The notes beneath the pieces are model-generated. The model made no database searches and had not been told where the DNA came from. It saw only the letters and a program-made list of their open reading frames with translations. Shown here in pieces: positions 4,427 to 22,610 of a stretch of DNA of 64,000 bases; the stretch's first letter is position 1; the number at the start of each line of letters is the position of its first letter. Both the position numbers and the translations under genes were made by a program. The DNA lies in the IMG/VR virus record IMGVR_UViG_3300024346_000003. One strand, 5' to 3'. The stretch comes from a virus. Its lineage: Duplodnaviria > Caudoviricetes.

Positions 4427-7400
4427 TTATTCGGATATATACTTTAAACTTGCATTTTTATCTACTAAAAATAATTGAGCCTCTTCTATTCTTCTTTTAA
4501 TCAAACCACTTAATACACCTGATTGTGCACCACTTATTGGTCCGTTTAATATACCTTGAGCAGCCTCTTTAAAATCATTTTTTTCAATAGCATTTTTTAT
4601 TTGTTCACCATATTCTCTAGCTGAAATATAATAAGCACCAGCGTTATAACCTAAACTAACTAATGCTGCCTTTTGATATTTATTTAACTTATTCCAATTA
4701 GCACTACCCAAATCTTTTTCGATTTGTTTACCGTATGTATTTTTAATTTGATAAACTAATGTATTTTTAGCAACTTCTTTCGTAAATACAGTACTAGATG
4801 TTACTTTTACTAATGAACCATTCTGTAATATTTTATCAGTACCGTATCCAGCTCTTAATGTACCTTCATCATTACCAGGTGTTGCTGTAAACGTTTCTTT
4901 TTTAGCAATATAATTACTAGTTACCGCTAACCAATCATTTTTATAATCGCTAATGGCTACACCAGCATAATTACCATTAGTAATTATACTTTTTAACTCT
5001 GCACTGAATGGTGTTAACTTATCTACTTTCATATCTTCTCTACTTGCACCAACTAAACTATTACCATCTCTAGCTTTAATGTATTTATCATCACAACTAT
5101 TTGTTGGGTATACAGCTTCTTTACCGTCTGGTGTTTTTGGATTTTTAACTATTGAGTCTAATGGTTTGCTAGTATCATATGCTTGTCCAAATATAGTTTT
5201 ACTTTTTGCGACTATACATTTTGCTTGTGTCCCATGATATTCCCAGTGCCATACTTCATCATAACTACCCTTATCATGGGCCCAGCCTGGATTTAAAAAT
5301 CCAAATCTATATGAATTATTAAATAACCATCCTACTATTGGGTCTGTATTAAAATCAAACTCACTTGGCCTACTACCTTCTTTATAAAGCCTTGTAAACA
5401 TGACACCGTCTGGACTAACCCAATTCCAATCTACAGCAAGGCCCCATCCATGAAGTGATGTTCCAGCTGCTGCTGCTGTTTTTTGACCTTTTGCCAATTC
5501 AACTTGTTTTGCGTAAGTTCTATAAAACGAACCAGCTTTTCCATATGTTTCTTTTTCTTTAAAACGACCAGCTTTAACTTCACCCTCAACCCATTTACTT
5601 AATTCTTGTACCATTTTTCTAAATGCATCTGCCGCTTCAGTAACCATGAATCCGATATCTCCAGCACTATTTTTAAATTTAGTACCACTTAAATCAACTT
5701 TTTTATTGGTTATTTGACCAATTGGTTTACCAAGTTCCATAAAACCATTAGTTACACCATTTTCAATTAATGTTGCTATTATAGCTGAATAATAACCAGC
5801 GGATACACCTCTATCAGAACCAATTAGTGCTCCAGAACCTGTTGTTCCAATCAAATTCATAAGCATTGTTGCTTTGTCCATTAATGGCGTTTTAGCTTTT
5901 TTAACTCTATTACCTTTAAAGGTTGTTGTCATTGAATGCGGTTTGATAGAGTGTGTTACCTTGTAAATTAAATAAGCACCTCTAAACATTGGTATATTAT
6001 TTAATTGGAAATACATCATTGGTTGAATCATTGCTGAACCTAACATTTCCACTTCAGCACTATATGACCTAGTTTGATAAACATTAAATAAATTATTACC
6101 AGCATACGTTGGTTTACTTTTATCACCAGTTTGTGATATACTTTCAATAACTTGGAGTGATTCCATTGTTTCGGTAAACTCTCTTTGGTCTAATTTAATA
6201 CTTCTAAAGTAATTCTGATTTTGTTGTCCATAGTTAACCGCAAATACTGGTACATTACCATCTAAACTATCAGCTTCTATTGGTGAATTTAAATCACTAG
6301 CTTCTACTGGTAATTCTATGGTTCCAGTATCACTATCCATTGATATCGATAGTCCATCATCTGGATAAACAGAGCCAGTACCCAAATCTAAGTTTGTTGA
6401 GGCTTGTCCAACATATACACAAACAAACGCTGGACCCGTACCTTTAAATGTAACTGGGTTATTATATGTGTATGCAGTAAACACCGTTTTTAATTCATCT
6501 ATATTGTTAAAGTTAACGAAGGTTGGTAGTGGTATAAAGTTAAAATTATTATCAGATAAAATTTTATTAATTATATCAAAATAACTTTGATTATAATTTG
6601 CTCTAATCAAATCTGTAACTGAATTTATATTTAAATAAAATTTATCACCAATATCAGCAAAGGCCCTATCAACAAATCTAAATGTATCAATTAAAGACGC
6701 TTCCGTTGCTGATGCTCTAAATTTTTTGGCATGTTTTAAATCTATTTCATTTTTAGTTGTTTCACCACATTGTGAAAATGCACTTTTATTTTCTGAACCA
6801 TTTAACCATTTGTCATTAATCGATGATAATATTCTATATATCATCAAGTTTATAGTATCATCATCACCAGTTCCAAATATTTCTTGTTGCGCTTCATCTT
6901 CTGGGTCTGGTATTACTTCTTTTTGATATGCTTCATTTAATGTTATTAATTTACTATAAAAACCAGATAAATATATTCTAAATTTATCAGCTCTAACTCT
7001 AATGCTTTTAGATGATGTACCATTTTGATACCCAGCCTCTGATGCTTGTTTTTTAAATTTATTACCACCAACATAACCAGCAGCTTTATCATAATAATCA
7101 TAGTTCCAAATATTTGGATTAACATTTTGTATTACTGTTGGTTGTGTAAGTAAAGATACCATATAGTTCATGACTGGTGTGTTAGGTTTAAATATTGTAT
7201 TTAAATTACCAACCGTTGATGCACCGTCATTAACAATATCTTTTACACCAGCAATCAATGCATAATTATTAACAACTGATTCAGTAAATAATTTATTTAA
7301 TTCAGTTCTTGATATTCGTTTTTGTAACCCCGTTTGATTTGAATTTGGTGCTTTTGCTAAATTTCTAACTTCTTGATTTTTAGTAAACCAATCGTCATAA

Positions 7401-10400
7401 TTACTTTTTGATTTATATAATTCTAACTCTTTTTGTATAAATTTAAATCCAGTATCATCCTTAACCCATTCTTCAAAATAAGAAATAAATTCATCTCTAA
7501 CTTGTTTTGGTAAATTCATTAATGTTAAATCTAGTGGTACATATGTTTCATATGCTGTAGCAGCACCTCTTATTCCATATTCCAAATCCCTTGTTACTGC
7601 ATACCCATCAGGGGCATCACCAAAAAACATACCCCATGGGTTATGTTCAGCATAAGCATCACCATATGGTGCTGATAAATATAAATATTCTTTTGATAGT
7701 GGCGTTCTTACGTTTGCTGGTATTAGTGTGTATTTTTTACCTTCCCTACCAGAATATACTATAGGGTCGGTATTATTGTGTGTTGCTGTATATCTTACTC
7801 TCCAAAGCATAGCACCAACAAATAATACCCACGCTTTTGGTGCGTGAACAAATGCTCCATTAACTTGAAATAATGTTCTAATACTACTAACTCTTGTATA
7901 GTTACCTTTAGTTTCTTCTTCCTTAAGGCGTTGCCATGATGTCCAGTCAAGATATTTATCTAACATCATCATTTCTTGAATATCAGCCCCGAAATTTTTA
8001 ACACCTTGCCATGGAATTGTGTGTAAGAATAAAAGTGCTCTAACTTCATCTAATGGTTGTCTATAATAAAAATAACTACCAAATAGTGATACTGATAAAT
8101 TACCTGTATTATTTGAACCAGATGTTCGCACGTCTGCGTTAGAAATACCAAATTCTATAAATGGTAAATAAAGTTTATTCCCCTTTATCCCTAAACTTAA
8201 TAACCCCTTTTGTTTTAAATAGGCACCGTTATCTGCCCATGTTTTTCTGAAAATTTTAGAATTAGTGTTGATTTGTGTTCTTTCTAATTCAGGCATAAAA
8301 TATATATTATCACTAAATTCACCATCACCAGCGTATAATATTGCATCGTCATATAATTTCTTATCAATTGGGTATGATAAGTAAGTACCAACAACTGGTA
8401 AGTTAACATTATCTCTATCACCATTAAATTTAAAATTATTAAATTCTGTATAAAAACCTATTAATGATGAATCTACTTTAGTATCGTTTTTCCACATTGG
8501 CTCACCCATATAATAATTAAATTCATCAGCAAAATCTGCTTCCGTTGCATCATAATTTAAAGTGTTCATCTCTAAAACTGAATAATTACCATTATATGGG
8601 TTTAAACCATCAATAATTTCATCAGAATCATTTGATTTAGTATCTTGATTATTAACAATACTTCTATATACCGAATCAACACGAGGTACTGAATTTGCTT
8701 CATCTAAGTTTCCTTTATGAAAATCAACAAGTTCTTTCCCAAATTCTGGAATCATCGATGATGCTGTATACTCGCTTAATTCGTATAACTTAACATGTAG
8801 TGAACCATCATCTTCATCTTTGAATGTATCTACATTATCTGTACCTTCATAATTTTTAGGGTTACTAACAAATATTATACTACTAGATAACTCTTTTAAA
8901 TCATCTCTTGATTTAAATGTATTATCATTATTATAAAATCCAGAACCGTCAAATCCTGTGTTTACTGGTATATAAGCGGCTTTTGCATCATCATCTCTAA
9001 TATATACGTATTTATAATAGTGAGATTTAAGCTGGTCTCCTGGAATTGTCTGCACAACATTATCAACACCAACCGTAGTTTTAATCAGTATTGGTTTTTT
9101 ACTAACAGCGCCTGGGTTGGTTATTTTAGATGAGCCTTCTGCACCAAATTCTGTAATTTTATTTATAAAGGCAGTAATTCGTTTTTCTTCATCCTCATCT
9201 TTAACTTCCTCCAACATTGTTGCTAATAAATCTTGACCATGTTTACCTAACTTTCTACAAGCAGCGACTAAAGTTTCAGCTTCTAGCCCACCCATTGTTT
9301 TTAATAATGCACCGCCTTTTGATGATTCAATCTTACTATTGAATGTACTAACACCTAATAACATAAAAGTCCTAAGTAATACTAATCTTTTTACTTCGTC
9401 AGCATTATTAGCATCTGTTGCTTCAATGTATGGATTTTGTGTCATTAATGGATTAATTGGTGTGTCAGCTGGTGTTAACGGAAACCAAGCATCTGCTGGT
9501 GCTATCGCATTTGTATCAACATCTGCACCAGCATCTGGATTATCAATTTGCTCTTGTAAATCTTTATCAAATTTTGCAACGTTTAATAACTCAGTGTGTA
9601 ACTCTTTAACGAAAACAACTTCATTTATATTTGTTGCTATAACGGGCGCTTTTCCTAGCCAGGTTTCAACATAACCTTCACCAGCTTTTTCTTGTCTATA
9701 TTCTGGCCAAGGATATATTGTTTTCTTTTCAACATTAACTACATCAGCTTGATTAACATTTAAAAGACCAGATATTTTATTAAATTCAACTGCTCGTTTA
9801 CCACTAGCGTCACTTTGTGCTTCTACTGATACATCTTTTAATACCTCTAAAAATATTTCAGCATTTACTGATAAAACTCTAAATATATTTCTAATTGTTG
9901 GTTCAAAACCAATAATACCTTCAGCAGTATCTGCTAATTTAGCGTTAAAGTCTGTTTCAGTTTTTGTTTTATTTTCAGCAAGTTTTGTTTTTATATCATT
10001 AAAATGGTATTGTATTCTTTTTAAATTATAAATATTAAGTTTAGTATCATCAGTGGCTACTGATGTTCCTAAATTACCAATCACTTTCAATAACTCTTTA
10101 ACATAATCTTTGTTAGTTTCATCACTCGTGTATTTACCACCAGAATGGTTAATAATTTCATTAATATTATCAGCACTAGTTAATTGTGCTTTAGTAATAT
10201 CGGATATTTTAACAACATCTTTCAATAAGTTTTCATTTAACTTCAAAGTATCATCTGAAATCTTATTATTTACCGCATTAACTAATCCTGTAATTGTTTC
10301 TTCATAAGCTTTAAGTGCGGTTTCATATTTTTTATCAGAGTCAGCACCATTTGGTACACATAAAACTACACCATCTGGTGATTTAAAATAAGTATTAACT

Positions 10401-11278
10401 GGGTTAACACCATCATATATTGCAGCGCTAAATGTATCAAAGGCAACTCTTATAGACTCTAAATCAGCAGCTATTTCATCATGCCCTTGTAGCTGTGCAG
10501 CTGAATTATCTTCTTGTGATATTTTTTGTGTGGTGTTAGCTAATTCAACAAATTTAGTTAACATCTCATCTATTGTTATGATTAAATTTGAGTTTTCACC
10601 ATATTCATCTTGTTTTAAAATTAATTTAGCTTGTCCTTTTTTTGTTCTAACTGCCGCTCTAATTAACCCAATTAATAAATCCGTTAATAAGGCATAAGTA
10701 AATCCCATAAAATCGGCTTGTATTTCAAAGTTACCAGTTTCTGAATTAAATGATGCGTTCCATCTTTGCATATGCAAACAATAGTTTACAGTGCCACCAT
10801 AAAAACCTTTAACTTTTAAACTAAAGATTGGGTATGGTAATTCAAAAAACATTCTATATTTAGACATACTACCTTGTGATAGTATTGCATTACCTCTTAC
10901 ATCTATAAATTTTATTTTAATTAATGGTGTATTTGCAGTGTCAAATTCAATATCAATACTTTCAATACCTAAACTTTCAAAATCATCAGTTTGTTGTTCT
11001 GATGCGTTCATTACATCTAAAGCAATCGCATCAGTATATCTGGTTGTTAAAGCTGGTAATAAACCATTATCAACTTTTGACCCCTCAATAAATGTAACAT
11101 TTGCATTACTATCAACGGTATTGATAGTTTCGGCACCTGAATAAATTATACTTCTACCTTTTCGCTTAGTACTAAATTCAACTTTAATACATAAATCTTC
11201 TGGGTTAACCATTACATTGTTAGCCTTATTAGGGTCTAACCACAATATTCTATTTTGTGAAACACTAGATTTATCCAT
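4427..11278 (-). CDS. Giant baseplate hub (gp27/VgrG-like) with C-terminal M15 peptidase and GH24 lysozyme
   Basis: Hub-like SAEVEMLGSAMIQPMMYFQL...GAYLIYKVTHSI...TTTFKGNR; M15 motifs SFYRTY.KQ, SLHGWGLAVD, EVWHWEY; lysozyme KKE-x8-D...GYG, KAALVSLGYNAG, LIKRRIEEAQLF. Confidence 0.7.
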   Translation of the reverse strand: MDKSSVSQNRILWLDPNKANNVMVNPEDLCIKVEFSTKRKGRSIIYSGAETINTVDSNANVTFIEGSKVDNGLLPALTTRYTDAIALDVMNASEQQTDDFESLGIESIDIEFDTANTPLIKIKFIDVRGNAILSQGSMSKYRMFFELPYPIFSLKVKGFYGGTVNYCLHMQRWNASFNSETGNFEIQADFMGFTYALLTDLLIGLIRAAVRTKKGQAKLILKQDEYGENSNLIITIDEMLTKFVELANTTQKISQEDNSAAQLQGHDEIAADLESIRVAFDTFSAAIYDGVNPVNTYFKSPDGVVLCVPNGADSDKKYETALKAYEETITGLVNAVNNKISDDTLKLNENLLKDVVKISDITKAQLTSADNINEIINHSGGKYTSDETNKDYVKELLKVIGNLGTSVATDDTKLNIYNLKRIQYHFNDIKTKLAENKTKTETDFNAKLADTAEGIIGFEPTIRNIFRVLSVNAEIFLEVLKDVSVEAQSDASGKRAVEFNKISGLLNVNQADVVNVEKKTIYPWPEYRQEKAGEGYVETWLGKAPVIATNINEVVFVKELHTELLNVAKFDKDLQEQIDNPDAGADVDTNAIAPADAWFPLTPADTPINPLMTQNPYIEATDANNADEVKRLVLLRTFMLLGVSTFNSKIESSKGGALLKTMGGLEAETLVAACRKLGKHGQDLLATMLEEVKDEDEEKRITAFINKITEFGAEGSSKITNPGAVSKKPILIKTTVGVDNVVQTIPGDQLKSHYYKYVYIRDDDAKAAYIPVNTGFDGSGFYNNDNTFKSRDDLKELSSSIIFVSNPKNYEGTDNVDTFKDEDDGSLHVKLYELSEYTASSMIPEFGKELVDFHKGNLDEANSVPRVDSVYRSIVNNQDTKSNDSDEIIDGLNPYNGNYSVLEMNTLNYDATEADFADEFNYYMGEPMWKNDTKVDSSLIGFYTEFNNFKFNGDRDNVNLPVVGTYLSYPIDKKLYDDAILYAGDGEFSDNIYFMPELERTQINTNSKIFRKTWADNGAYLKQKGLLSLGIKGNKLYLPFIEFGISNADVRTSGSNNTGNLSVSLFGSYFYYRQPLDEVRALLFLHTIPWQGVKNFGADIQEMMMLDKYLDWTSWQRLKEEETKGNYTRVSSIRTLFQVNGAFVHAPKAWVLFVGAMLWRVRYTATHNNTDPIVYSGREGKKYTLIPANVRTPLSKEYLYLSAPYGDAYAEHNPWGMFFGDAPDGYAVTRDLEYGIRGAATAYETYVPLDLTLMNLPKQVRDEFISYFEEWVKDDTGFKFIQKELELYKSKSNYDDWFTKNQEVRNLAKAPNSNQTGLQKRISRTELNKLFTESVVNNYALIAGVKDIVNDGASTVGNLNTIFKPNTPVMNYMVSLLTQPTVIQNVNPNIWNYDYYDKAAGYVGGNKFKKQASEAGYQNGTSSKSIRVRADKFRIYLSGFYSKLITLNEAYQKEVIPDPEDEAQQEIFGTGDDDTINLMIYRILSSINDKWLNGSENKSAFSQCGETTKNEIDLKHAKKFRASATEASLIDTFRFVDRAFADIGDKFYLNINSVTDLIRANYNQSYFDIINKILSDNNFNFIPLPTFVNFNNIDELKTVFTAYTYNNPVTFKGTGPAFVCVYVGQASTNLDLGTGSVYPDDGLSISMDSDTGTIELPVEASDLNSPIEADSLDGNVPVFAVNYGQQNQNYFRSIKLDQREFTETMESLQVIESISQTGDKSKPTYAGNNLFNVYQTRSYSAEVEMLGSAMIQPMMYFQLNNIPMFRGAYLIYKVTHSIKPHSMTTTFKGNRVKKAKTPLMDKATMLMNLIGTTGSGALIGSDRGVSAGYYSAIIATLIENGVTNGFMELGKPIGQITNKKVDLSGTKFKNSAGDIGFMVTEAADAFRKMVQELSKWVEGEVKAGRFKEKETYGKAGSFYRTYAKQVELAKGQKTAAAAGTSLHGWGLAVDWNWVSPDGVMFTRLYKEGSRPSEFDFNTDPIVGWLFNNSYRFGFLNPGWAHDKGSYDEVWHWEYHGTQAKCIVAKSKTIFGQAYDTSKPLDSIVKNPKTPDGKEAVYPTNSCDDKYIKARDGNSLVGASREDMKVDKLTPFSAELKSIITNGNYAGVAISDYKNDWLAVTSNYIAKKETFTATPGNDEGTLRAGYGTDKILQNGSLVKVTSSTVFTKEVAKNTLVYQIKNTYGKQIEKDLGSANWNKLNKYQKAALVSLGYNAGAYYISAREYGEQIKNAIEKNDFKEAAQGILNGPISGAQSGVLSGLIKRRIEEAQLFLVDKNASLKYISE

Positions 11279-11289
11279 ATTATTTTAAA

Positions 11290-11607
11290 TTAACCATAAA
11301 GTTGTTTGTATCTATTTACTTGCCCTATATATCTTTCAAGTGCAGAATCAAAAGGATAAGGTACTCTTATTACATCACCATCTTTTATATTAAATTCCAA
11401 ACCACCATATTGTGGATTTGCTAACATAATTAAAAAACCATGATATGGGTTATTATAATAAGTTTGACTGACTTTGTCAAGTCTAGTTCTACTTAATTTA
11501 TAAATAATATTTTTATCAGTAGCTTCTACTGGTATCCTGATATATGGTATGGGTAATATCTTACCTTCATATCTAAACTTTTCGTATCTATCGAAATAAC
11601 TTGCCAT
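11290..11607 (-). CDS. LysM/tail-X-like baseplate protein
   Basis: TRLDKVSQTYYNNP...IMLANP...IKDGDVIRVP; located between tube initiator and hub. Confidence 0.7.
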   Translation of the reverse strand: MASYFDRYEKFRYEGKILPIPYIRIPVEATDKNIIYKLSRTRLDKVSQTYYNNPYHGFLIMLANPQYGGLEFNIKDGDVIRVPYPFDSALERYIGQVNRYKQLYG

Positions 11608-11627: not shown

Positions 11628-14600
11628 TTATGTACAACCAGAGATTGGACAATTCACAAGTACACCTTTATCGTTATAAACTGAAATAGTACTTTTACCA
11701 GTTCCATTTGGCCAACAATTACAACAAGGGTCTTTTAAGATATAACCCCACTCCTCATAATCTAACATATCCGCATATTTAATATCTTCCTCTGGACAAT
11801 CAAATTGTGCAATCGCTTTAGATTTATAATATTTATAATCTGGATATGCCAAAACTGAAACAATAAATAAAACACCACCATTTTTTACATCAGCTAATTC
11901 ACCTAAAGCTGATTTCCAACCACCTTTTTCACTAATAAATTCACCCATATTTGGTAAGTCAGGGTGTGAACTAGAGTTTATTGTAAATGTTGCAATATCA
12001 ATATTACCACCCGTTGAACTAAATAACCTAAGTTTAGCTTGATAGTCTTTAGATAAACCATTAACAACCCCAAATCTACCTTTTAATTTATCACCATCAT
12101 AATTAATATTAAATGCATAAGTATTAGTAAACTCAGCATTACTAAATACCGCTTGGTCTGGGTCAGTTGGTACTGGTGGTGCTGTTGGTGGTACTGGAAC
12201 CGTTGTTGCAGTAGTAGCTGTTAAGCTAGTTAATGGTTGATTACCAGCATTTGCATTATTATTTTGAGCAAGTTGATTCGCAGTTGGTGTTATATTTGGA
12301 CTCATCTGCGCTTCTGTTAAATTATTTTTGAAAGCAGAAATACTATCTTCACCATTAACAATACTTCCCTTGTCATCTTTAACTACAATAGTATCAGCTC
12401 TTGGGTCATATACTTCAGTATTTGCAAAGTAATTAAATGATACAGCATTTTGTAATTTATTAATTGGTCCAGTAAGACTTGAACCACCAATAAATGCAAA
12501 TGACATATCTACATTACAAATCATTGGTTGTACACCAACACCCTCTGGGTTTAAATCCCAAACCAATGGGTCAAATGTGAAATTTAAATTTTCAATTATA
12601 ATCTTAGTATGGTAAAAATCACCAATTCTTAATATACATACTGGTGGTCTACCAAATGCTAAATTACTTGGGTTATTTGTAGTACCAGCACCTTGAGTTG
12701 GCCCTTGTCTCATACATTGTTGTAAGAATGTTAATCTAGAATTAAAACCTTCTGGCGTTGTTGAGTGAAACGCTGGTTGGAAAAATTTAATTTTAGTTTT
12801 TAAAGTATCATATACCGTTGGGTCTGAAAGTTCTAATTTCTGAAAATAATCACATTCTGTATAAAATCTAGATGGACTTATTTTAGGTAATAAAACTTTA
12901 GGTGGTGGTACTGTTTCCTTTTCTGTTTTTGGTTTATCTTCAGTATTTAAATTAGGGTCAATAACAAATTTAACCGTAACGTATCTATTAATCTTACAAC
13001 CATAAACATCATTTACAGATTTTAAATAATTTCTTTTTCTTGATGCTGGTGATTCTGGACATGAACTAGTACCATCACCACCTTTATTAGTTGCACCACC
13101 AACTACTGCTGCAACTGTTACTCTTTCTGAAAATGGTGGGTCTGTTAATATATTTGTTAATAACCAATCTTTAACACTATTTGCCCTAAGTTCTGATAAT
13201 TTATCATTTCTATTATCACCAAAAGTACCAACAACACTAGCAAAACCTTCAACTACTACTTTACAATTTTTACATTTTGTAAGTAAATAATTTTGTAAAT
13301 CAATTTTATATTGTGGGTCTCTCCAACCTAAATATTTTTTATCAGCAAGTCTAGTTCCAGTATAATCAACTGTTGTCCCCGTACCATTTAAACCAAAATC
13401 AGTTCTATCTGGTTCATCTCTACCGTCAGTACCCTGGTAAACATTAGGTGTGTCTCCGCATTGGACTGATGACCATGTTTTTTTACCCTCAACTAAAAAT
13501 TGATAGCATGATTCGTTATATCTATCTATACCTTCACCTTTACCCGTAATATTTTTACTATAATCAATTCTACAAACACCATAATTTTTTGTTGCATCCC
13601 ATATTTTAGCGGTATCATCAAATGATGCAGTTACAATTTTAGTATTATCTGGGCTGAATTCAGCTGTTAAAACCCAATCAGTATGTCCAGCTAATGTTGA
13701 TAATAAAGCACCATTTGATACATCCCATATTTTACCTGTATTATCAGATGATGCAGTTACAATTTTAGTTCCATCTGGACTAAAGTTAGCGTCATTAATC
13801 GCATCAGTATGTTCGTCTAATGTAAATAATAAACCACCGTTTGATACATTCCATATTTTAGATGTGTTATCTGGGGATGTGGCGGCAGTTACAATTTTAG
13901 TTCCGTCTGGACTAAATCTAGCAGCATTAAGAAACTGAGTGTGGCCACTTAAATTAAATATTAAAGCACCAGTTGCTGTATCCCATATTTTAGCTGTACC
14001 TTCATATGATGCGGTAACTACTTTAGTTCCATCTGGGCTGAATTCAGAACTTAGTATTCCATCAGTATGGCCACTTAAGATATGTATTAAAGTACCAGAT
14101 GCTACATCCCATATTCTAGCTGTAGTATCATTTGATGAAGTTATAATTTTAGTTCCATTTGGATTAAATTTAGCATCGTAAACGGTATTAGTATGTCCAC
14201 TTAAATTAAATATTAGAGTACCATTGATTGCGTTCCATATTTTAGCGGTATCATCATATGATGCTGTTACCACTTTAGTTCCATCTGGGCTGAATTCAGC
14301 ATAACTAACAGAATTAGTGTGTCCTAATGTAAATAATGAACTACCATTTGATACATCCCATATTCTAGCGGTATCATCATATGATGCTGTTACCACTTTA
14401 GTACCATCTGAACTAAATTTAGCAGTAATGAGAGAATTAGTATGTCCAGCTAATATATATATAGTATCACCAGATGTTGCATCCCATATTCTAGCTGTAT
14501 TATCATATGATGCTGTAACTACTTTAGTTCCATCTGGACTAAATTCAGCATAATGAACACTATCAGTATGACCTTTTAATGTTTCTAATGCATTATCAAC

Positions 14601-16970
14601 ATCACACACACCATCTTCATATTTTGGATATTTATCAATTTCAAAAACATCATTTGGAAAATAAACATTAAATGATGGTGGCGCTAATTGTTCAAGTAAT
14701 GTTTCTTCTGGTTTTGTTTGAGCATTTGCAGTTTCAGTTTTATCACTCTCATTTTTTGTAAGAATTTGTTTTGCTTCTTCCAATGGAATACAACCAGCAA
14801 AAAATGATGCAACATAATCATCAAAATTTGTAGGGTTTATACCTTCAGCACCACCAATAAAATTAAGGTAATTCGGATGGTCAATAATTATTTTCCAACT
14901 TAAATTACCAGTTCTTTCAGTATTATTATAAGTATACATCGGTTCCCCTCTACCTATAAAATTATGTTTATCCCAACTTGCTGATGTTGATTCACTGAAG
15001 CTAATATCATATGGTGGGAACCACATTATTCTACCTTTATGACCACTTAATTGGTCACCAGGACCAATTTCACATGCTAATAAATTAGGTAAATTATCAT
15101 TCCAGGCTAAATTCTCAATTGAGAACATATATCTTTTATTGTCAGTATATTTTTTTGACATATCATCAGTCTTATATGGTGCTATTCTAGCAAAACCATT
15201 ATCTTCTAAAACTGATAATTCAACATTTTTTCTAAATATATTACGATTTGAACCATATAACCCTCTATTCTTTTGTAAATCTAAAACATCATCATATCTA
15301 TCGTATGTTGTCCATGTTCTACAAAATACTTTGGCTGGGTCATCGTTAACACCTTTAATTAAAGCATTATATGATAATACACCACTACCTTTTGAAACAA
15401 AACGACCAACACTAGATACGGCAGTTTGTATTTGAGATTCAGAATCATCTTTAACACCATGACCTGTTACAAGTGTTTGCATTCTATTTGTTTCAAATAA
15501 TTTTCTTGTTTTATATAAAAGTGTTTTTTTATTGTTGAATAATGTTTCTTGATTGAAATCTTTAACACTATCTGGTGTGTTGTTATACTCATCAGTCCAA
15601 CCAAAAGCATCTTTATATTTTTTAATTGTTGTTCCAGCTCTATTTAATTCAGCATCAGACTCTGAAACTGGTAAATCATAACTAGCATAAAAACCTCTAT
15701 AGTCTTCAGCCCAACCATCACCTATAATTTGTCCAGGTCTATCATAGTTACCTGATGATATTGGGCTATTTTCCTTTCCGTTTAAGAAATCTATAATACC
15801 ACCATCACCATCACCTCTTGCATATAAATTATAATTTACACCATCACCAGTATTATCACCCTTTTTAATTCTATCATCTTCGTATCCAGCCGCATATCCC
15901 TGTCTTAATGTTGTTCCATTTGGATTAGAGATAATCATATTAGCTCTCATATGATTAATTAAAGTTTGAACTTGACCCACACCAGAATTTTTAAGCATTT
16001 CATTTGCTCGTTTAATATTTGGTTGACCAATATAATCTAATTTATTACTAAATGAATAAATACTTGAAGATTCTTCTAATAAACTTTTTGGTGATTGAAC
16101 ACCAAGTATATTTGCTGCAAAGTTAAGGATTCTACCAACGGTACCTTTAGGTACTGTAATACTATAATTTAAATTAACTAAACTTTTACCTTGAAGTAAT
16201 GATAATGGATTTAAATTTAAACTACCTAATGTTTCTTGTTGTAAACCAAATGCTGCATTATAACCAACATGTGCTAATAATTGTTGACCACCTATATTAC
16301 CTAAAGGTGTATCATTTATAGTTCCAGTAGCACCTAATACTCTACCTAGTAAAGTTGACCTAATATCTTCATTAGCAACCAAACCACCTGTTGAATTAAA
16401 ACCAACTCCTTGACCACCTACAACACCACCGATTATATCGGCAGCTTGTGTACTAGGTCCACCTATATTTAAATTATTATTCTCATCAATATATGATTTA
16501 AGATTTTGAAAAGTTGGTACTGGTTGTGTATTTAAATCAATAACTGATTGTTTAGGTACATCAACATATATATTTTTAGATGTCATACCTTCTCTAACAT
16601 CAGAACTATTAGTTAAATTACCATTAGCTAAAAATTGACCATTTAATAATTCATTTGAATTTGAATAAAGACCTTGATTACCTATTACACTATTTGTTGA
16701 TTGATTTAATATAATATTAGTTTGAGAGTAATCATCAGTAGTACCTTGAAAAGTATTTAATATAGTATTTAATTCTTGATATATAGTACCAGTATTATCA
16801 ATACTATTTGACGGTTGAACCGCAATTGGTAACGTTTCTACTTCAACTGGATAACCAATACCACCTAATAATGATTGTAAACCATTATCAATTACAGTAT
16901 CTGTTACTAAATTCTTAAGTAATAAATAATCCCTAAAGGAAGGTGATAGTGAATTTATTGAATTTGGCAT
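11628..16970 (-). CDS. Baseplate tube-initiator-like protein with OmpA-like domain and WD40 propeller
   Basis: Split initiator motifs WFPPYDISFSE..W...FIGRGEP.YTYNNTERTGNLSW and FGRPPVCILRIGDFYHTKIII; OmpA-like VYFPND...VEGFAS..G...NDKLSELRANSV...NRYV; 8 WD40 repeats. Confidence 0.6.
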   Translation of the reverse strand: MPNSINSLSPSFRDYLLLKNLVTDTVIDNGLQSLLGGIGYPVEVETLPIAVQPSNSIDNTGTIYQELNTILNTFQGTTDDYSQTNIILNQSTNSVIGNQGLYSNSNELLNGQFLANGNLTNSSDVREGMTSKNIYVDVPKQSVIDLNTQPVPTFQNLKSYIDENNNLNIGGPSTQAADIIGGVVGGQGVGFNSTGGLVANEDIRSTLLGRVLGATGTINDTPLGNIGGQQLLAHVGYNAAFGLQQETLGSLNLNPLSLLQGKSLVNLNYSITVPKGTVGRILNFAANILGVQSPKSLLEESSSIYSFSNKLDYIGQPNIKRANEMLKNSGVGQVQTLINHMRANMIISNPNGTTLRQGYAAGYEDDRIKKGDNTGDGVNYNLYARGDGDGGIIDFLNGKENSPISSGNYDRPGQIIGDGWAEDYRGFYASYDLPVSESDAELNRAGTTIKKYKDAFGWTDEYNNTPDSVKDFNQETLFNNKKTLLYKTRKLFETNRMQTLVTGHGVKDDSESQIQTAVSSVGRFVSKGSGVLSYNALIKGVNDDPAKVFCRTWTTYDRYDDVLDLQKNRGLYGSNRNIFRKNVELSVLEDNGFARIAPYKTDDMSKKYTDNKRYMFSIENLAWNDNLPNLLACEIGPGDQLSGHKGRIMWFPPYDISFSESTSASWDKHNFIGRGEPMYTYNNTERTGNLSWKIIIDHPNYLNFIGGAEGINPTNFDDYVASFFAGCIPLEEAKQILTKNESDKTETANAQTKPEETLLEQLAPPSFNVYFPNDVFEIDKYPKYEDGVCDVDNALETLKGHTDSVHYAEFSPDGTKVVTASYDNTARIWDATSGDTIYILAGHTNSLITAKFSSDGTKVVTASYDDTARIWDVSNGSSLFTLGHTNSVSYAEFSPDGTKVVTASYDDTAKIWNAINGTLIFNLSGHTNTVYDAKFNPNGTKIITSSNDTTARIWDVASGTLIHILSGHTDGILSSEFSPDGTKVVTASYEGTAKIWDTATGALIFNLSGHTQFLNAARFSPDGTKIVTAATSPDNTSKIWNVSNGGLLFTLDEHTDAINDANFSPDGTKIVTASSDNTGKIWDVSNGALLSTLAGHTDWVLTAEFSPDNTKIVTASFDDTAKIWDATKNYGVCRIDYSKNITGKGEGIDRYNESCYQFLVEGKKTWSSVQCGDTPNVYQGTDGRDEPDRTDFGLNGTGTTVDYTGTRLADKKYLGWRDPQYKIDLQNYLLTKCKNCKVVVEGFASVVGTFGDNRNDKLSELRANSVKDWLLTNILTDPPFSERVTVAAVVGGATNKGGDGTSSCPESPASRKRNYLKSVNDVYGCKINRYVTVKFVIDPNLNTEDKPKTEKETVPPPKVLLPKISPSRFYTECDYFQKLELSDPTVYDTLKTKIKFFQPAFHSTTPEGFNSRLTFLQQCMRQGPTQGAGTTNNPSNLAFGRPPVCILRIGDFYHTKIIIENLNFTFDPLVWDLNPEGVGVQPMICNVDMSFAFIGGSSLTGPINKLQNAVSFNYFANTEVYDPRADTIVVKDDKGSIVNGEDSISAFKNNLTEAQMSPNITPTANQLAQNNNANAGNQPLTSLTATTATTVPVPPTAPPVPTDPDQAVFSNAEFTNTYAFNINYDGDKLKGRFGVVNGLSKDYQAKLRLFSSTGGNIDIATFTINSSSHPDLPNMGEFISEKGGWKSALGELADVKNGGVLFIVSVLAYPDYKYYKSKAIAQFDCPEEDIKYADMLDYEEWGYILKDPCCNCWPNGTGKSTISVYNDKGVLVNCPISGCT
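13590..14590 (-). repeat. Eight WD40 repeats
   Basis: L.GHT..V..AEFSPDGTK.VTAS.D.TA.IW repeated 8 times at about 42-aa spacing. Confidence 0.95.
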
Positions 16971-16999: not shown

Positions 17000-17220
17000 G
17001 GTAATAAAAATTTTGAAAAAATAAATAACTTTTATAATATATATTACTTTATTAATTATTATATTATAATATATATTATTATTTTATTATATATATTACT
17101 TTATTAATTATTATATATATTATATTAATATATTATTTATCCATTTAAGACAATGTAAATAAACTGATTTATTTATTAAATAACAACTTTTTTTATAATT
17201 TTAACAAAAAATTAACATAT
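17000..17220. repeat. Extremely AT-rich intergenic region with 27-bp direct repeat
   Basis: TATATATTACTTTATTAATTATTATAT at 17038-17064 and 17090-17116; almost no G/C from 17030 to 17140. Confidence 0.8.
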
Positions 17221-19821
17221 TTATTTACCTCTTCGTTTAGGTCCACTACCAGTAACTTTGCCACCACTTGATGCTTCTTCACTACTTATATGAACACCTT
17301 GAGTTATTTTTTTCATTATATCTGGTTGATTTACGATACTTTCCCAAAATTTAGAATCACTAGGTGCATCAACTGATATTTTAATATTTAAATCATTAAA
17401 TTTATGTGTTGTTTCATTTGATGAACCCCCATTACCCATTTTTTCAGCTAATTTAGCATTACCACCAGCTTGAGTTCCAGCAATTGTAATAGCATCATTT
17501 ACTTTTAAGAATTTATCTTGCGGGTGAAACATAATACCATCTTGCATACCAACACTTTTGAAATCACCAGCTTTATTTTTACCTCTACCAGCTGAAACTG
17601 CGGTTGCATTTTCATTGCCCCATATTGCATCACCAATTTCTTCACCTAATGCACTACCAGCAATACCACCAATTATACCACCAAGTAAAACACCAACAGG
17701 GCCACCAATAGCACCCATTGCAGCACCAGCAGCAGCACCACCCATTGCGCCACCACCTTTCGATACAGTTCTACCAGCATTTTCACCACCACTCATACCC
17801 GTAGCAGCATTTTCACTATATTCATCATAAGCAGCAAAACCACCAGCAAGAAGACCAGCACCACCAGGACCTTTTAAAAATTTACCAATTTTACCAAATC
17901 TACCCATTTTACCTGATTTACCCTTTCCTTTTCCGTCACCCATATCCAACATATCAAGCATAGAACCACCGCCACCACCTCCACCACTAGCTACTGAATT
18001 GAATCCCATACCTAATAATTTACCATTCAACAACCACATTGCTGACTCGCCAAGATATTTTAAAATAGAACCACCAAATATTGCCGCACCAGCAGTAACT
18101 GCCGCTGTTATTGGATTATTTTTCATAAAATCACTAATATATTTTATAAAATCACCAACACCCTTAATAACACCTTCGACCATATCTCTAAATTCTGAAC
18201 TATTAAACCATTTAGCTAATTCTTTAACTCTTTCACCAAAATTTTCTCTTAAAGATTTAGCTAATGGTAATAACATTTCTTTTACCATTAAAATTAAGTC
18301 TTGTATAGTTTCATCAAAAGACCTACCAAATTCAGCTCTTTCCTGTAATGTTTTATCCTCAGCTTTAATCCTTGCAATATCATTTTTATTTAAATCTTTT
18401 AAATCTTTACTAAAGCTACCAGCTTCTATTTTCCATTTACCATCTTTAAATTTAGCAAATGAACTTATTAGTTGAGTATCTTCTTCACCAAAAATACCAG
18501 ATTTAAGATTTTTACCAACTTCCACAATTTTAAGTTGAGCCGAACCCATTTCTTTTAACTCCTCAACAGCTATACCAGTTATTGTTGATATCTCACGCAT
18601 TCTATCAGCAGCCAAACCAGCTTTAATATTAAATTCACCAGTCTCTTTATTAAATTCAATAAATTCAGCAGAAGCTTTACCAACATCTTTAGAAAATCCA
18701 GCCATATCATTTCTACTTTTAAATAGTAATGTCATCGGGTCACCTAGTTTAGCAAATTCACCACCCATTGTTGTTAATTGAGCGGCCATTTCTATTGCAC
18801 CTTCTGGTCTAAATACTTTTTCAGCCATACCAGCAATACCTTGCATATCTAATTTTAATCTAGTAGCTTCAACTGATAACTTAGCTAAACCAGCAATACC
18901 ACCTTTAAAATTAAATCTTTGTGCTAATTTTAAATTGTTTTGTAATGACTTTAATGCAGCGGCACCATTTACACCAAGTTTAGCAGCTTTATTCATAGTC
19001 ATCTCAACTATTGAGCCAGACCTTTCAGCTGAAATGTTAAATTTATCCATTTCAGCAGCCATACCAACAGCAAATTCCTTACCTAACCCAGTACCTTCAG
19101 CCATACCAGCCATAGCCTTATAACCATCTTCAGTCAACATCACCGACTTTCCAATAGCTTCACTATAACCTTGTTGCATAACAGCCAAATCCTTAACACC
19201 AACACCCCACATTGTGGTTGTTTTAGCAGAATCTTTAATAGTATTATAAAGATTGTTAAATGTTTTTTCAGAACCAGCCATGCTTTTATTAGCATTTAAT
19301 ATAGCTTTGTCCATTTCAAAGATTCCAGTACCCTTAAGCATACCGAAACCTTTAGTGATTAAACCTGGTACTTTACCTAAAAAACCAACTGCTGAACCTA
19401 ATCCAGCGCTTATTAAACTAGTTTGTTTTACTTGTTCAGTTAACTCAGCTGTTTGTTGCTTAAGTAAACCTAATTCTTTTTCAGTTATATCTACACCTTC
19501 TTTTTTAGCTGCAATTATTTTTTTTAATTCTTTTTCCTTTTCTTTAAGTGCTTTTATTTCATTAGCATCACCGTCTGCTGTTGCTTTATTAAGTTTTTTA
19601 GTATTTTCTAATAAATCATTTTCAGCTTTAAGTTGTTCTTTTTTTAATTGAGCGACTTTTTGCTCAATAAATTGTAAGTTTTTTTGTAGTTCAGTTAATT
19701 TTTTAACACCTTCCATATAACCATTAAGGTTACTGTTCATCTTTTCCTGAAGTTCAGCAGATTCCTTTTGAGCTTGTTTCCACTCCTCAAATTTTTTCTT
19801 ATCAAATTCGTATTTTGCCAT
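17221..19821 (-). CDS. Tape measure protein
   Basis: Long helical, Ala/Gly/Lys-rich protein; coiled-coil N-terminus; hydrophobic glycine-zipper GGAAAGAAMGAIGGPVG; lies between chaperone and baseplate genes. Confidence 0.75.
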   Translation of the reverse strand: MAKYEFDKKKFEEWKQAQKESAELQEKMNSNLNGYMEGVKKLTELQKNLQFIEQKVAQLKKEQLKAENDLLENTKKLNKATADGDANEIKALKEKEKELKKIIAAKKEGVDITEKELGLLKQQTAELTEQVKQTSLISAGLGSAVGFLGKVPGLITKGFGMLKGTGIFEMDKAILNANKSMAGSEKTFNNLYNTIKDSAKTTTMWGVGVKDLAVMQQGYSEAIGKSVMLTEDGYKAMAGMAEGTGLGKEFAVGMAAEMDKFNISAERSGSIVEMTMNKAAKLGVNGAAALKSLQNNLKLAQRFNFKGGIAGLAKLSVEATRLKLDMQGIAGMAEKVFRPEGAIEMAAQLTTMGGEFAKLGDPMTLLFKSRNDMAGFSKDVGKASAEFIEFNKETGEFNIKAGLAADRMREISTITGIAVEELKEMGSAQLKIVEVGKNLKSGIFGEEDTQLISSFAKFKDGKWKIEAGSFSKDLKDLNKNDIARIKAEDKTLQERAEFGRSFDETIQDLILMVKEMLLPLAKSLRENFGERVKELAKWFNSSEFRDMVEGVIKGVGDFIKYISDFMKNNPITAAVTAGAAIFGGSILKYLGESAMWLLNGKLLGMGFNSVASGGGGGGGSMLDMLDMGDGKGKGKSGKMGRFGKIGKFLKGPGGAGLLAGGFAAYDEYSENAATGMSGGENAGRTVSKGGGAMGGAAAGAAMGAIGGPVGVLLGGIIGGIAGSALGEEIGDAIWGNENATAVSAGRGKNKAGDFKSVGMQDGIMFHPQDKFLKVNDAITIAGTQAGGNAKLAEKMGNGGSSNETTHKFNDLNIKISVDAPSDSKFWESIVNQPDIMKKITQGVHISSEEASSGGKVTGSGPKRRGK

Positions 19822-21286: not shown

Positions 21287-21562
21287 TTACTGGTTGGGTA
21301 TTTCTCCTGATTTTAATCTTGCTTTTAATTGGTCACCACTAACTTTAGTTGACCTGGTACCTTTAGCACCTTTGTTGTTTATTTCCTCTTTTTGCTCTTC
21401 TAAAGCTTCAGTTTTTCTATTATTTTCATTTAACAAATGTGATAAATACTGTCTCCTTTCGTAAACTGACATATTTAAAACATCTGAATACGTAAACCCA
21501 ATATGTTTAACACAATAATAAATTTCCTCTAATAGGTAATTTTTATATGTTAAAGTCAGGCC
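21287..21562 (-). CDS. Tail assembly chaperone downstream (T-like/gp51-like) frame, probably reached by frameshift
   Basis: The frame is open well upstream of ATG 21472 (GLTLTYKNYLLEEIYYCVKHIGFTYSDVLNMSVYERRQYL) with no ATG/GTG/TTG, and overlaps the end of the previous gene. Confidence 0.65.
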   Translation of the reverse strand, partial: GLTLTYKNYLLEEIYYCVKHIGFTYSDVLNMSVYERRQYLSHLLNENNRKTEALEEQKEEINNKGAKGTRSTKVSGDQLKARLKSGEIPNQ

Positions 21563-22610
21563 AAAAAAACTTGACCGTAAAGGGAAGAAACCTAGTAACG
21601 GACCCTCCCCCAGGGGTCCCGAACGTAATGTTCATATCAATACCACAATCTAATTCTGACATATAGGTTTTTAATTTTTTACTATCCATGATTCTCATTG
21701 TATCAATAAATTCAGAAATATAGTTTTTATCTCTATTTCCATCAATTTCAACAACCTGAGACTCAAGTAATAATGTTGATTCAGTATTAATTAAATTATT
21801 TTCTTCTTTTAAAAATAATGCTAACTTTTCAAGCTCACTAATTTCACCAACTGTCAATAATTTAAATTTAACAGTTGATTTTGATAAAGGTAATGTAAAT
21901 GTAAACAACCCCTCACCATCTGGCTCAACTGATAAATGTTTAACTTTAAGTTTAGTTAAATCAACTTCAGTTTCAAATGGTTTATCATTTTCATCTAAAA
22001 TTGTAACTGGATACATTTCACCATAACCAGTAGCTCTAAGCCAAACCATAATAGCATCTCTATCACCAGGTATCAAATCATTATATCTTAATTCTGGTTC
22101 TAATATTTTTCTATTTAATAATATTTCTAAGAAATCACCACTCTCAAGTAAGTTTGGTGATGTTAAAATATTTTCATCAGCCGCAGTTAAGAATGAAACT
22201 TTAATTTTACCTTTTTTATTTCTATATAACTTACCTTCACTTGGTAATGGAATGATATCATAAGGTTGATTCATTTGTGGTTGACTAATTTGAGCTATTT
22301 CAATATCTCTATTAGTGTTGATTTGTGGTTTTAAATTTTCCATTGGACTTTTCATTGTGTGTTGTTGTACTTCAACTCTTGGGTTTAATACTTCTTGAGC
22401 AACATCTTGATTTGATGATTTTAAGGATTCCTCTCTTAATCGTAATTGTTCAGCTGTTCTTCTAGCCATTTCAGTTGCCGCCTCTATTTCACCAGAAGAC
22501 ACCTGATTATTCATTATTGTTTCTTCTTGCTCTTTTGCGATTTGCACCCCAGTTTGATTTGCTGCGGCAATTTGGTCTGCCGTTGGGAAGACTTTTGGTC
22601 TGTTTTCCAT
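21543..22610 (-). CDS. Tail assembly chaperone (T4 gp26-like)
   Basis: IPLPSEGKLY...FLTAADENILTS...DL..GDRDAIMVWLRATGYGE.YPV; between tube and tape measure; ends KFFWPDFNI. Confidence 0.75.
   Translation of the reverse strand: MENRPKVFPTADQIAAANQTGVQIAKEQEETIMNNQVSSGEIEAATEMARRTAEQLRLREESLKSSNQDVAQEVLNPRVEVQQHTMKSPMENLKPQINTNRDIEIAQISQPQMNQPYDIIPLPSEGKLYRNKKGKIKVSFLTAADENILTSPNLLESGDFLEILLNRKILEPELRYNDLIPGDRDAIMVWLRATGYGEMYPVTILDENDKPFETEVDLTKLKVKHLSVEPDGEGLFTFTLPLSKSTVKFKLLTVGEISELEKLALFLKEENNLINTESTLLLESQVVEIDGNRDKNYISEFIDTMRIMDSKKLKTYMSELDCGIDMNITFGTPGGGSVTRFLPFTVKFFWPDFNI

What the first reader, a model, noticed from the sequence alone, without database searches (positions are those of the whole stretch)
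11628..16970. Nested domains: 8-blade WD40 propeller inside an OmpA-like domain inside a tube-initiator
Seen: tube-initiator motifs lie on both sides of an OmpA-like domain. That domain is interrupted after VYFPND by eight near-identical WD40 repeats (13590-14590). The insert is bracketed by a repeated GVC tripeptide (GGTGTGTGT 14604-14612; GGTGTTTGT 13572-13580), resembling an insertion duplication or a closing Cys pair. The OmpA-like motif reads GFAS rather than GHTD but keeps the Arg of LS..RA. Inference: a recently acquired bacterial-type WD40 cassette displayed on the baseplate or in the periplasm as a binding platform.
Basis: partly seen in the sequence, partly recalled or inferred. Interest (0 to 1): 0.7.

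Follow-up and report, generated by a model that had tools for sequence, protein, structure and literature searches.

The report
Swappable propeller on phage tube initiator
A giant uncultured phage's tail-tube starter protein has a cell-wall-anchor-like domain built into it, and inside that domain sits an exchangeable eight-bladed propeller whose binding face differs between closely related phages, which points to an unnoticed host-contact module at the tail tip.

Summary
ORF 11628-16970 (-) encodes a 1780-aa protein placed directly after the tape measure in a T4-like baseplate block.

Fold searches on a propeller-less positional orthologue show two nestings:
- A tail-tube/tube-initiator fold is split by an OmpA-like domain.
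- The OmpA-like domain starts at the VYFPND strand and has a long unaligned loop before helix 1.

In this phage that loop holds an eight-bladed WD40 propeller (pLDDT 98, Z 49).

The GVC...GVC repeat is chance. Only the two cysteines are conserved. All 33 insert-bearing relatives have the pair and none of the 87 insert-free ones do.

The site is a cassette hot spot with several states: no insert, a short Cys loop, a 240-aa module, a degenerate propeller, or WD40. WD40 presence needs at least 6 changes on the flank tree.

Propellers are about 55-69% identical where tube parts are 95-100% identical, with dS 3-10 times higher. Variation sits on the known top-face hotspot positions.

"Recently acquired" is not supported. 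Peptidoglycan binding is doubtful because the DAP-binding Asp is Ser family-wide.

The scan had already noted OmpA-in-tube-initiator in other genomes. The swappable propeller and the Cys clamp are new here.

The parts
11628..16970 (-). Whole gene, 1780 aa (P0001): tail-tube-initiator-like baseplate core protein
   Evidence: gene position
15204..16970 (-). N-terminal region (aa 1-589). Conserved in the family, fold unknown; modelled as low-confidence helices.
14736..15203 (-). Tube-fold N-half (aa 590-745), with invariant GRIMWFPPY and FIGRGEP.YTYNNTER motifs
   Evidence: tube-fold matches start at P0098 residues 510-548, which align to about P0001 590-616
14604..14678 (-). OmpA-like strand 1 (FNVYFPND), conserved YEDG, and first clamp cysteine (Cys789)
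13581..14603 (-). Eight-bladed WD40 propeller (aa 790-1130). An exchangeable cassette.
13326..13580 (-). Second clamp cysteine (Cys1133) and a small Cys-containing beta module (aa 1131-1215). This is the rest of the strand 1 to helix 1 loop.
12951..13325 (-). OmpA-like core (aa 1216-1340): helix 1, strand 2 with GFAS, helix 2 with LSELRA, strands 3-4
12291..12908 (-). Tube-fold C-half (aa 1355-1560), the most conserved part (FHSTTPEGFNSRLTFLQQC ... GRPPVCILRIGDFY ... WDLNPEGVGVQPM)
11631..12290 (-). C-terminal Cys-rich domain (aa 1561-1780). Present in only some orthologues; a second variable module.
17221..19821 (-). Tape measure protein, directly upstream
11290..11607 (-). 105-aa baseplate wedge-like protein, directly downstream
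4427..11278 (-). 2283-aa protein with C-terminal VanY peptidase and phage lysozyme domains (candidate hub/spike enzyme)

Best explanation
P0001 is the tail-tube initiator (the gp48/gp54-position protein) of a giant contractile-tailed phage of Bacteroidota-like hosts. Its tube beta-barrel is split by an OmpA-like domain. The loop between strand 1 and helix 1 of that domain is a landing site for exchangeable modules, here an eight-bladed WD40 propeller. By the known WD40 topology, the propeller's two ends leave from its bottom face and are tied by a conserved Cys pair. The top face would therefore point away from the pedestal. The scaffold is nearly invariant. The top-face hotspot positions are hypervariable, and whole propellers are replaced by recombination between close relatives. 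Most likely the propeller binds a variable component of the host envelope, and the OmpA-like domain is its pedestal, possibly gripping the cell wall. Tube initiators ride on the tube tip during contraction, so the module would act at or just after outer-membrane puncture. Shown: the architecture, the cassette polymorphism and the hypervariability pattern. Inferred: the ligand, the disulfide, the location in the virion and the timing.
For: Gene order: T4 gp51-like, a 468-aa ORF, tape measure, P0001, wedge-like, then a lysozyme/VanY giant protein. This parallels T4 51-27-28-29-48-54 and is conserved in relatives with and without the propeller.

Orthologue model P0098, OmpA part: OmpA-like domains align over model residues 684-893. 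The best is 3td3_A at Z 10.9, rmsd 2.8, 119 of 120 residues. All 50 top Foldseek hits are OmpA-like.

Orthologue model P0098, tube part: tube initiators and tubes align over residues about 530-1060, across the OmpA part. The matches include:
- 9g8s_T, Z 8.9
- 9ay5_G, Z 8.5
- 9euf_M
- 6u5b_h
- 9ki1_0
- 8kea_P residues 2-180, which is the gp18 beta-barrel of PMC10966104

P0001 model: propeller pLDDT 98, OmpA part 80-93, strand FNVY 86-93. The propeller matches eight-bladed WD40 structures at Z 49.

Insert site and Cys pair. At least 6 gains or losses of WD40 on the flank tree.

Divergence in 43 close pairs: tube parts 0.95-0.98 identity, insert 0.63.

Synonymous divergence: dS of the propeller is 0.37 and 0.69, against 0.05-0.13 in the flanks, in two pairs.

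A 17-kb comparison with the nearest relative shows a sharp divergence island over the nested module.

Entropy above 3 bits occurs only at repeat positions 5, 7, 8 and 23. These are R1-2, R1, R2 and D-1.

Phage 812: the tube initiator stays on the tube tip as it is driven through the wall (PMC13433997).
Against: The tube-fold Z scores (7-9) lie in the range the tool calls middling, and the tube halves are modelled at low pLDDT. No sequence-level link to T4 gp48/gp54 or to any PHROG or Pfam tube family was found. The DAP-binding Asp of GHTD is Ser in the whole family, so peptidoglycan binding is uncertain. A ring of 200-kDa subunits with propellers is bulky for a tube tip. No ligand is known, and no coordinates were available to measure the Cys-Cys distance. 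The nesting was shown on an orthologue that is 41-46% identical overall and transferred to P0001 by alignment.
Confidence: 0.6

Rival explanations
1. Purely structural module. The OmpA-like domain and the propeller are internal baseplate connectors that bind other phage proteins, as LysM domains do in other contractile baseplates. They do not touch the host.
For: LysM domains, another peptidoglycan-binding fold, serve as structural glue in baseplates of P2, T4 gp53, A-1(L) gp16 and the phage 812 sheath initiator. The DAP-binding Asp is lost family-wide. The OmpA core is under strong purifying selection in one pair (dN/dS 0.03).
Against: A fixed structural partner does not explain near-identical phages that have no insert, a Cys loop or unrelated cassettes at the same site. 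It also does not explain hypervariability confined to the propeller's ligand-binding face.
Confidence: 0.2
2. Counter-defence or decoy. The variable propeller binds or shields against a variable host immunity protein rather than an envelope receptor.
For: Rapid turnover and hotspot diversification fit any arms race. Bacterial STAND sensors recognise conserved phage structural proteins (PMC13581612, abstract seen).
Against: A virion baseplate protein with many cysteines, next to wall-degrading enzymes, suits an extracytoplasmic role. No defence-related neighbour was seen.
Confidence: 0.08
3. Diversity-generating retroelement target. The hotspot variation is written by a phage reverse transcriptase.
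For: Variation is concentrated on a few surface positions of a phage tail protein.
Against: The 109-kb record has no reverse transcriptase and no second (template) copy of the repeat, but the record is only about 31% complete. dS is also strongly raised, which points to recombination of whole blades.
Confidence: 0.03

Closest known systems
Tail tube initiators of contractile systems (T4 gp48/gp54, Anabaena phage A-1(L) gp18, phage 812 gp113, Pvc7/Afp7-type proteins)
   Same: Gene placed right after the tape measure. Tube-type beta-barrel with an extra domain.
   Different: No detectable sequence similarity. Five to seven times larger. The barrel is interrupted by an OmpA-like domain. There is a 590-aa N-terminal region of unknown fold.
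LysM domains in contractile baseplates (P2 gpX, T4 gp53, A-1(L) gp16, phage 812 sheath initiator)
   Same: A cell-wall-binding type of fold recruited into the baseplate core next to the tube initiator.
   Different: A different fold (OmpA-like, not LysM). It is fused inside the tube domain rather than being a separate protein, and it carries an exchangeable insert.
OmpA-like peptidoglycan-binding domains (A. baumannii OmpA 3TD3/3TD5, Pal, OprF, MotB, T6SS TagL)
   Same: Same fold over the full domain (Z 10.9, 119 of 120 residues). The LS..RA arginine is kept.
   Different: GHTD is GFAS/GYAS, so the Asp that pairs with the Arg in DAP binding is lost; FopA1 (6u83), the best sequence match, also reads GYAS. 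There is an 85- to 450-residue insertion between strand 1 and helix 1. Extra cysteines are present.
Repetitive prokaryotic WD40 propellers with variable hotspots (Hu et al. 2017; Nostoc 2YMU; Thermomonospora PkwA 5YZV)
   Same: Complete DHSW tetrads, high blade-to-blade identity, and variation at R1-2/R1/D-1.
   Different: Nested in a virion protein, closed by a Cys pair, and exchanged as a cassette among phages.
Predicted WD40 folds in receptor-binding proteins of C. difficile diffocins and phages (PMC13324602)
   Same: Propellers proposed as host-recognition parts of contractile machines.
   Different: Those lie in peripheral fibre/RBP proteins. This one lies in the central tube initiator.

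Membership tests
WD40 repeat beta-propeller | Tandem units of about 42 aa with GH...WD signatures | tested here: met
   PF00400 E 5.8e-72, 8 stretches; units listed
WD40 repeat beta-propeller | DHSW hydrogen-bond tetrad residues | tested here: met
   H2, S22/T20, D24 and W30 are near invariant over 166 blades; definition from PMC3419727
WD40 repeat beta-propeller | Closed propeller fold | tested here: met
   pLDDT 98. Eight-bladed matches: 5naf_A Z 49.3, rmsd 1.6, 331 aligned; Tako8 rmsd 1.4
OmpA-like (PF00691) domain | Beta-alpha-beta-alpha-beta-beta fold over the whole domain | tested here: met
   Orthologue P0098: 3td3_A Z 10.9, 119 of 120 residues, model 684-893; top 50 Foldseek hits all OmpA-like. 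Transferred to P0001 by alignment.
OmpA-like (PF00691) domain | Pfam gathering score | tested here: not met
   P0001 scores 21.6 bits against a cut-off of 27.2. Many orthologues carry a precomputed PF00691 hit, and the family profile reaches E 2.4e-5 against PDB OmpA-like chains.
OmpA-like (PF00691) domain | DAP-binding Asp (GHTD) and Arg (LS..RA) pair | tested here: not met
   The Arg is kept but the Asp is Ser. GFAS here, GYAS nearly invariant in 120 relatives.
OmpA-like (PF00691) domain | Binds peptidoglycan | not testable with these tools
   Needs a pull-down with purified sacculi
Tail tube initiator | Tail-tube type beta-barrel | tested here: met
   About 20 of the 50 listed matches are tube, tube-initiator or Dit chains from phage and CIS baseplates. 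Z 6.3-8.9, 105-158 residues aligned, ranges about 530-1060. The Z values are moderate and that part of the model has low pLDDT.
Tail tube initiator | Gene directly after the tape measure, inside the baseplate hub block | tested here: met
   same order in L003, L086, L087
Tail tube initiator | Sequence similarity to T4 gp48 or gp54 | tested here: not met
   hhalign probability below 1%; weak BFVD fold hits to 'baseplate tail tube cap' only (E 0.17-0.6)
Tail tube initiator | Hexameric ring between the hub and the first tube ring | not testable with these tools
   Needs a virion structure
DGR variable protein | Reverse transcriptase and template repeat in the genome | tested here: not met
   None in the 109-kb record; the record is about 31% complete

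The most novel reading that the evidence does not exclude
The tube initiator carries a true host-range determinant. On this reading it is an exchangeable, disulfide-clamped propeller that recognises a variable periplasmic or inner-face envelope protein after the outer membrane is pierced. That would be a second recognition step at the tube tip, independent of the fibres, with the OmpA-like pedestal docking on the wall.
Probability: 0.2. Interest if true: 0.85.

Novelty: new variant of a known kind. Interest (0 to 1): 0.6.

Why it matters
Host recognition in contractile phages is normally assigned to fibres and peripheral baseplate proteins, and the central tube initiator is treated as a conserved structural part. 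Here a large uncultured phage family (more than 2300 protein clusters) has a cassette-exchange site with a clamped, hypervariable propeller in the core of the injection machine. This gives a concrete, testable candidate for recognition at or after membrane puncture. It also offers a natural display scaffold: a Cys-clamped loop in an OmpA-like domain that tolerates inserts from 0 to about 420 residues.

Tried and rejected
Searches that found nothing:
- tblastn of the N-terminal part, the tube C-half and the OmpA part against 50,697 cultured phage records.
- Pfam, PHROGs and NCBIfam on the flanks. Only weak OmpA hits appeared.
- hhalign of the family profile against T4 gp48 and gp54.
- ESM Atlas look-ups for the N-terminal region and for the 240-aa cassette.
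- Literature searches for OmpA or WD40 in tube initiators. No description was found.

Searches that did not help:
- A search for shorter relatives returned only fragments without names.
- VIA and Foldseek on the whole P0001 model were filled by WD40 hits, so they could not test the flanks.

Readings rejected:
- GVC...GVC as a target-site duplication. The repeat is confined to two sequences.
- Recent acquisition from a bacterium.
- DGR mutagenesis.

Not generalised: positive selection on the OmpA core. dN/dS is 1.07 in one pair and 0.03 in another.

Full report
**What is there.** The finding's coordinates are exact. ORF 11628..16970 on the minus strand encodes a 1780-aa protein, P0001. Pfam finds eight WD40 repeats (E 5.8e-72). 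Tandem Repeats Finder gives a 126-nt period over 13588-14570 with 73% matches. The two GVC tripeptides lie at 14604-14612 and 13572-13580, and YFPND lies just upstream. The blades are 43-71% identical to each other, mean 56%. They are repetitive but not near-identical.

**Context.** The gene sits in a contractile-tail block. The order is sheath, tube, a T4 gp51-like protein, a 468-aa ORF, tape measure, P0001, a 105-aa wedge-like protein, then a 2283-aa protein ending in VanY peptidase and lysozyme domains. T4 has the order 51-27-28-29-48-54. P0001 therefore occupies the gp48/gp54 position, that of the tube initiators. The record is a 109-kb fragment of a giant uncultured phage. Earlier notes of this scan place the phage with Bacteroidota-like hosts; I did not test that.

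**Relatives.**
- More than 2300 protein clusters match the N-terminal 790 residues, on contigs up to 380 kb.
- None is in cultured phages.
- Positional orthologues keep the same neighbours whether they are 1150, 1260 or 1776 aa long.
- All 120 retrieved relatives share the two tube-like halves, and nearly all share the OmpA-like segment between them.

**Nesting, tested by structure.**
- The P0001:590-1580 model gives the propeller pLDDT 98, the OmpA part 80-93 and the strand FNVY 86-93. The tube halves reach only 40-76.
- The propeller matches eight-bladed WD40 structures (5naf_A Z 49.3; Tako8 rmsd 1.4).
- Propeller hits fill every list for that model, so I also folded P0098, a 1150-aa orthologue without the propeller.
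- Solved OmpA-like domains align to P0098 residues 684-893. The best is 3td3_A at Z 10.9, rmsd 2.8, with 119 of 120 residues aligned. All 50 best Foldseek hits are OmpA-like.
- That range begins at strand FKVYF, which aligns with P0001 FNVYF, and ends at strand 4. About 90 residues in between are unaligned.
- VYFPND is therefore strand 1 of the OmpA-like fold, and the strand 1 to helix 1 loop is the insertion site.
- In the same search, about twenty tube, tube-initiator and Dit chains from phage and CIS baseplates align over about 530-1060, on both sides of the OmpA part (Z 6.3-8.9).
- Among them, 8kea_P residues 2-180 correspond to the beta-barrel of the A-1(L) tube initiator gp18 (PMC10966104).
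- These Z values are moderate, and there is no sequence link to T4 gp48/gp54. I hold the tube-initiator reading at roughly 80%; it rests on the fold together with the gene position.

**The insertion site.**
- Alignment shows a precise junction. Every protein has YFPND...YE(D/N)G, then the variable part, then (I/L)xYK.N.TG.
- Insert-free orthologues read YENGL-QNPGTDP-ILYK, with no cysteine.
- Every insert carrier has one Cys just after YEDGx and one just before the resumption. That is 33 of 33 carriers: 21 WD40, 4 with a degenerate propeller of about 410 aa, 4 with an unknown 240-aa module, and 4 with short Cys loops.
- None of the 87 insert-free proteins has the pair.
- GVC twice occurs only in P0001 and its nearest relative, so it is not a duplication scar. 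The conserved feature is the Cys pair.
- By the known WD40 topology, blade 8 is built from the N-terminal strand d (ALETL) and the last a-b-c strands. Both chain ends therefore leave from the bottom face, where the c-d loop would be. A disulfide there would close the blade and point the top face away from the pedestal. This is inference; I could not read the model coordinates.

**Turnover.**
- On a tree of the flanks (1333 columns, 60 proteins), WD40 presence needs at least 6 changes.
- P0028, with the 240-aa module, and P0030/31, with Cys loops, have almost identical flanks. P0031 keeps the first and last residues of the module, which suggests an internal deletion.
- In 43 close pairs the tube halves are 95-98% identical, the insert 63% and the OmpA core 86%.
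- P0044 and P0045 are 98% identical in the flanks and 40% in the insert.
- Against the nearest relative, only blades 1 and 8 are orthologous (85% and 82%). The inner blades are no closer than paralogues.
- dS is 0.37 in the propeller against 0.08-0.13 in the flanks. In a second pair it is 0.69 against 0.05-0.13. Whole blades or cassettes are therefore replaced by recombination.
- Over 17 kb of the baseplate block, identity to the nearest relative is 96-100% except for sharp islands. One island covers the nested module; another lies inside the 2283-aa protein.

**What varies.**
- Pooling 166 blades, the scaffold is nearly invariant with complete DHSW tetrads.
- Entropy exceeds 3 bits only at repeat positions 5, 7, 8 and 23.
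- By the rules of Wu et al. 2012 these are R1-2, R1, R2 and D-1, the top-face residues that contact ligands in solved WD40 complexes.
- The same pattern is described for repetitive prokaryotic WD40 proteins (PMC5587647).

**Origin.**
- The nearest cellular propellers are 45-54% identical, from many bacterial phyla. Nothing above 56% appeared among shorter proteins.
- GC3 of the insert is 0.12, against 0.11 for the gene.
- The cassette is bacterial in type but old and native to this phage family.
- The record has no reverse transcriptase and no template copy.

**Function.**
- In phage 812 the tube initiator stays on the tube tip as it is driven through the wall (PMC13433997). The neighbouring giant protein carries wall-degrading enzymes.
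- The most likely reading is a tube-tip module whose propeller binds a variable host envelope component, on an OmpA-like pedestal.
- Peptidoglycan binding is doubtful. The Arg of LS..RA is kept, but the partner Asp is Ser in the whole family.
- The main rival is a purely structural role, like that of LysM domains in other baseplates. It does not explain the dispensability of the insert or the face-specific variation.

**Novelty.** Earlier first-stage notes of this scan recorded an OmpA-like domain inside a tube initiator in at least six other genomes, also with the Asp replaced. I found no publication describing it. New here are the nested propeller, the Cys-clamped cassette site with several alternative inserts, and the hotspot hypervariability.

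Noticed in passing
window 4427-11278 (-), especially about 6900-9300: The 2283-aa downstream protein ends in VanY peptidase and phage lysozyme domains. It contains a second divergence island, 59-84% nt identity to the nearest relative against 94-99% around it. It may co-vary with the propeller.
   Followed up: partly
window 11631-12290 (-): The C-terminal Cys-rich domain of P0001 (aa 1561-1780) has no family match. It is present in only some orthologues and is only 28% identical between P0035 and P0032, whose tube halves are 99% identical. It is a second swappable module on the same protein.
   Followed up: partly
orthologues P0028/P0033/P0040/P0048 and P0044-P0047 (insert positions): Alternative cassettes occupy the same Cys-clamped site. 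One is a 240-aa module with no Pfam or Atlas match. The other is a degenerate propeller of about 410 aa with weak WD40/PQQ hits.
   Followed up: partly
window 17050-17920 (-): The C-terminal end of the tape measure is 86-90% identical to the nearest relative, while the rest of the gene is 96-100%.
   Followed up: no
window 21543-22610 (-): A 355-aa protein matches Pfam T4_baseplate (E 2.9e-5, 24.3 bits against a cut-off of 24.5) and PHROG 150 'baseplate hub'. This supports T4-like synteny of the hub block.
   Followed up: partly
BFVD hit R9ZWT8 (Cellulophaga phage phi17:2), not in the window: A 327-aa 'OmpA domain containing protein' of a cultured Bacteroidota phage gave a weak Foldseek match spanning 302 columns of the P0098 model (E 0.034). 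It could be a minimal tube initiator with a nested OmpA-like domain in a culturable system. I could not fetch it for a test.
   Followed up: no
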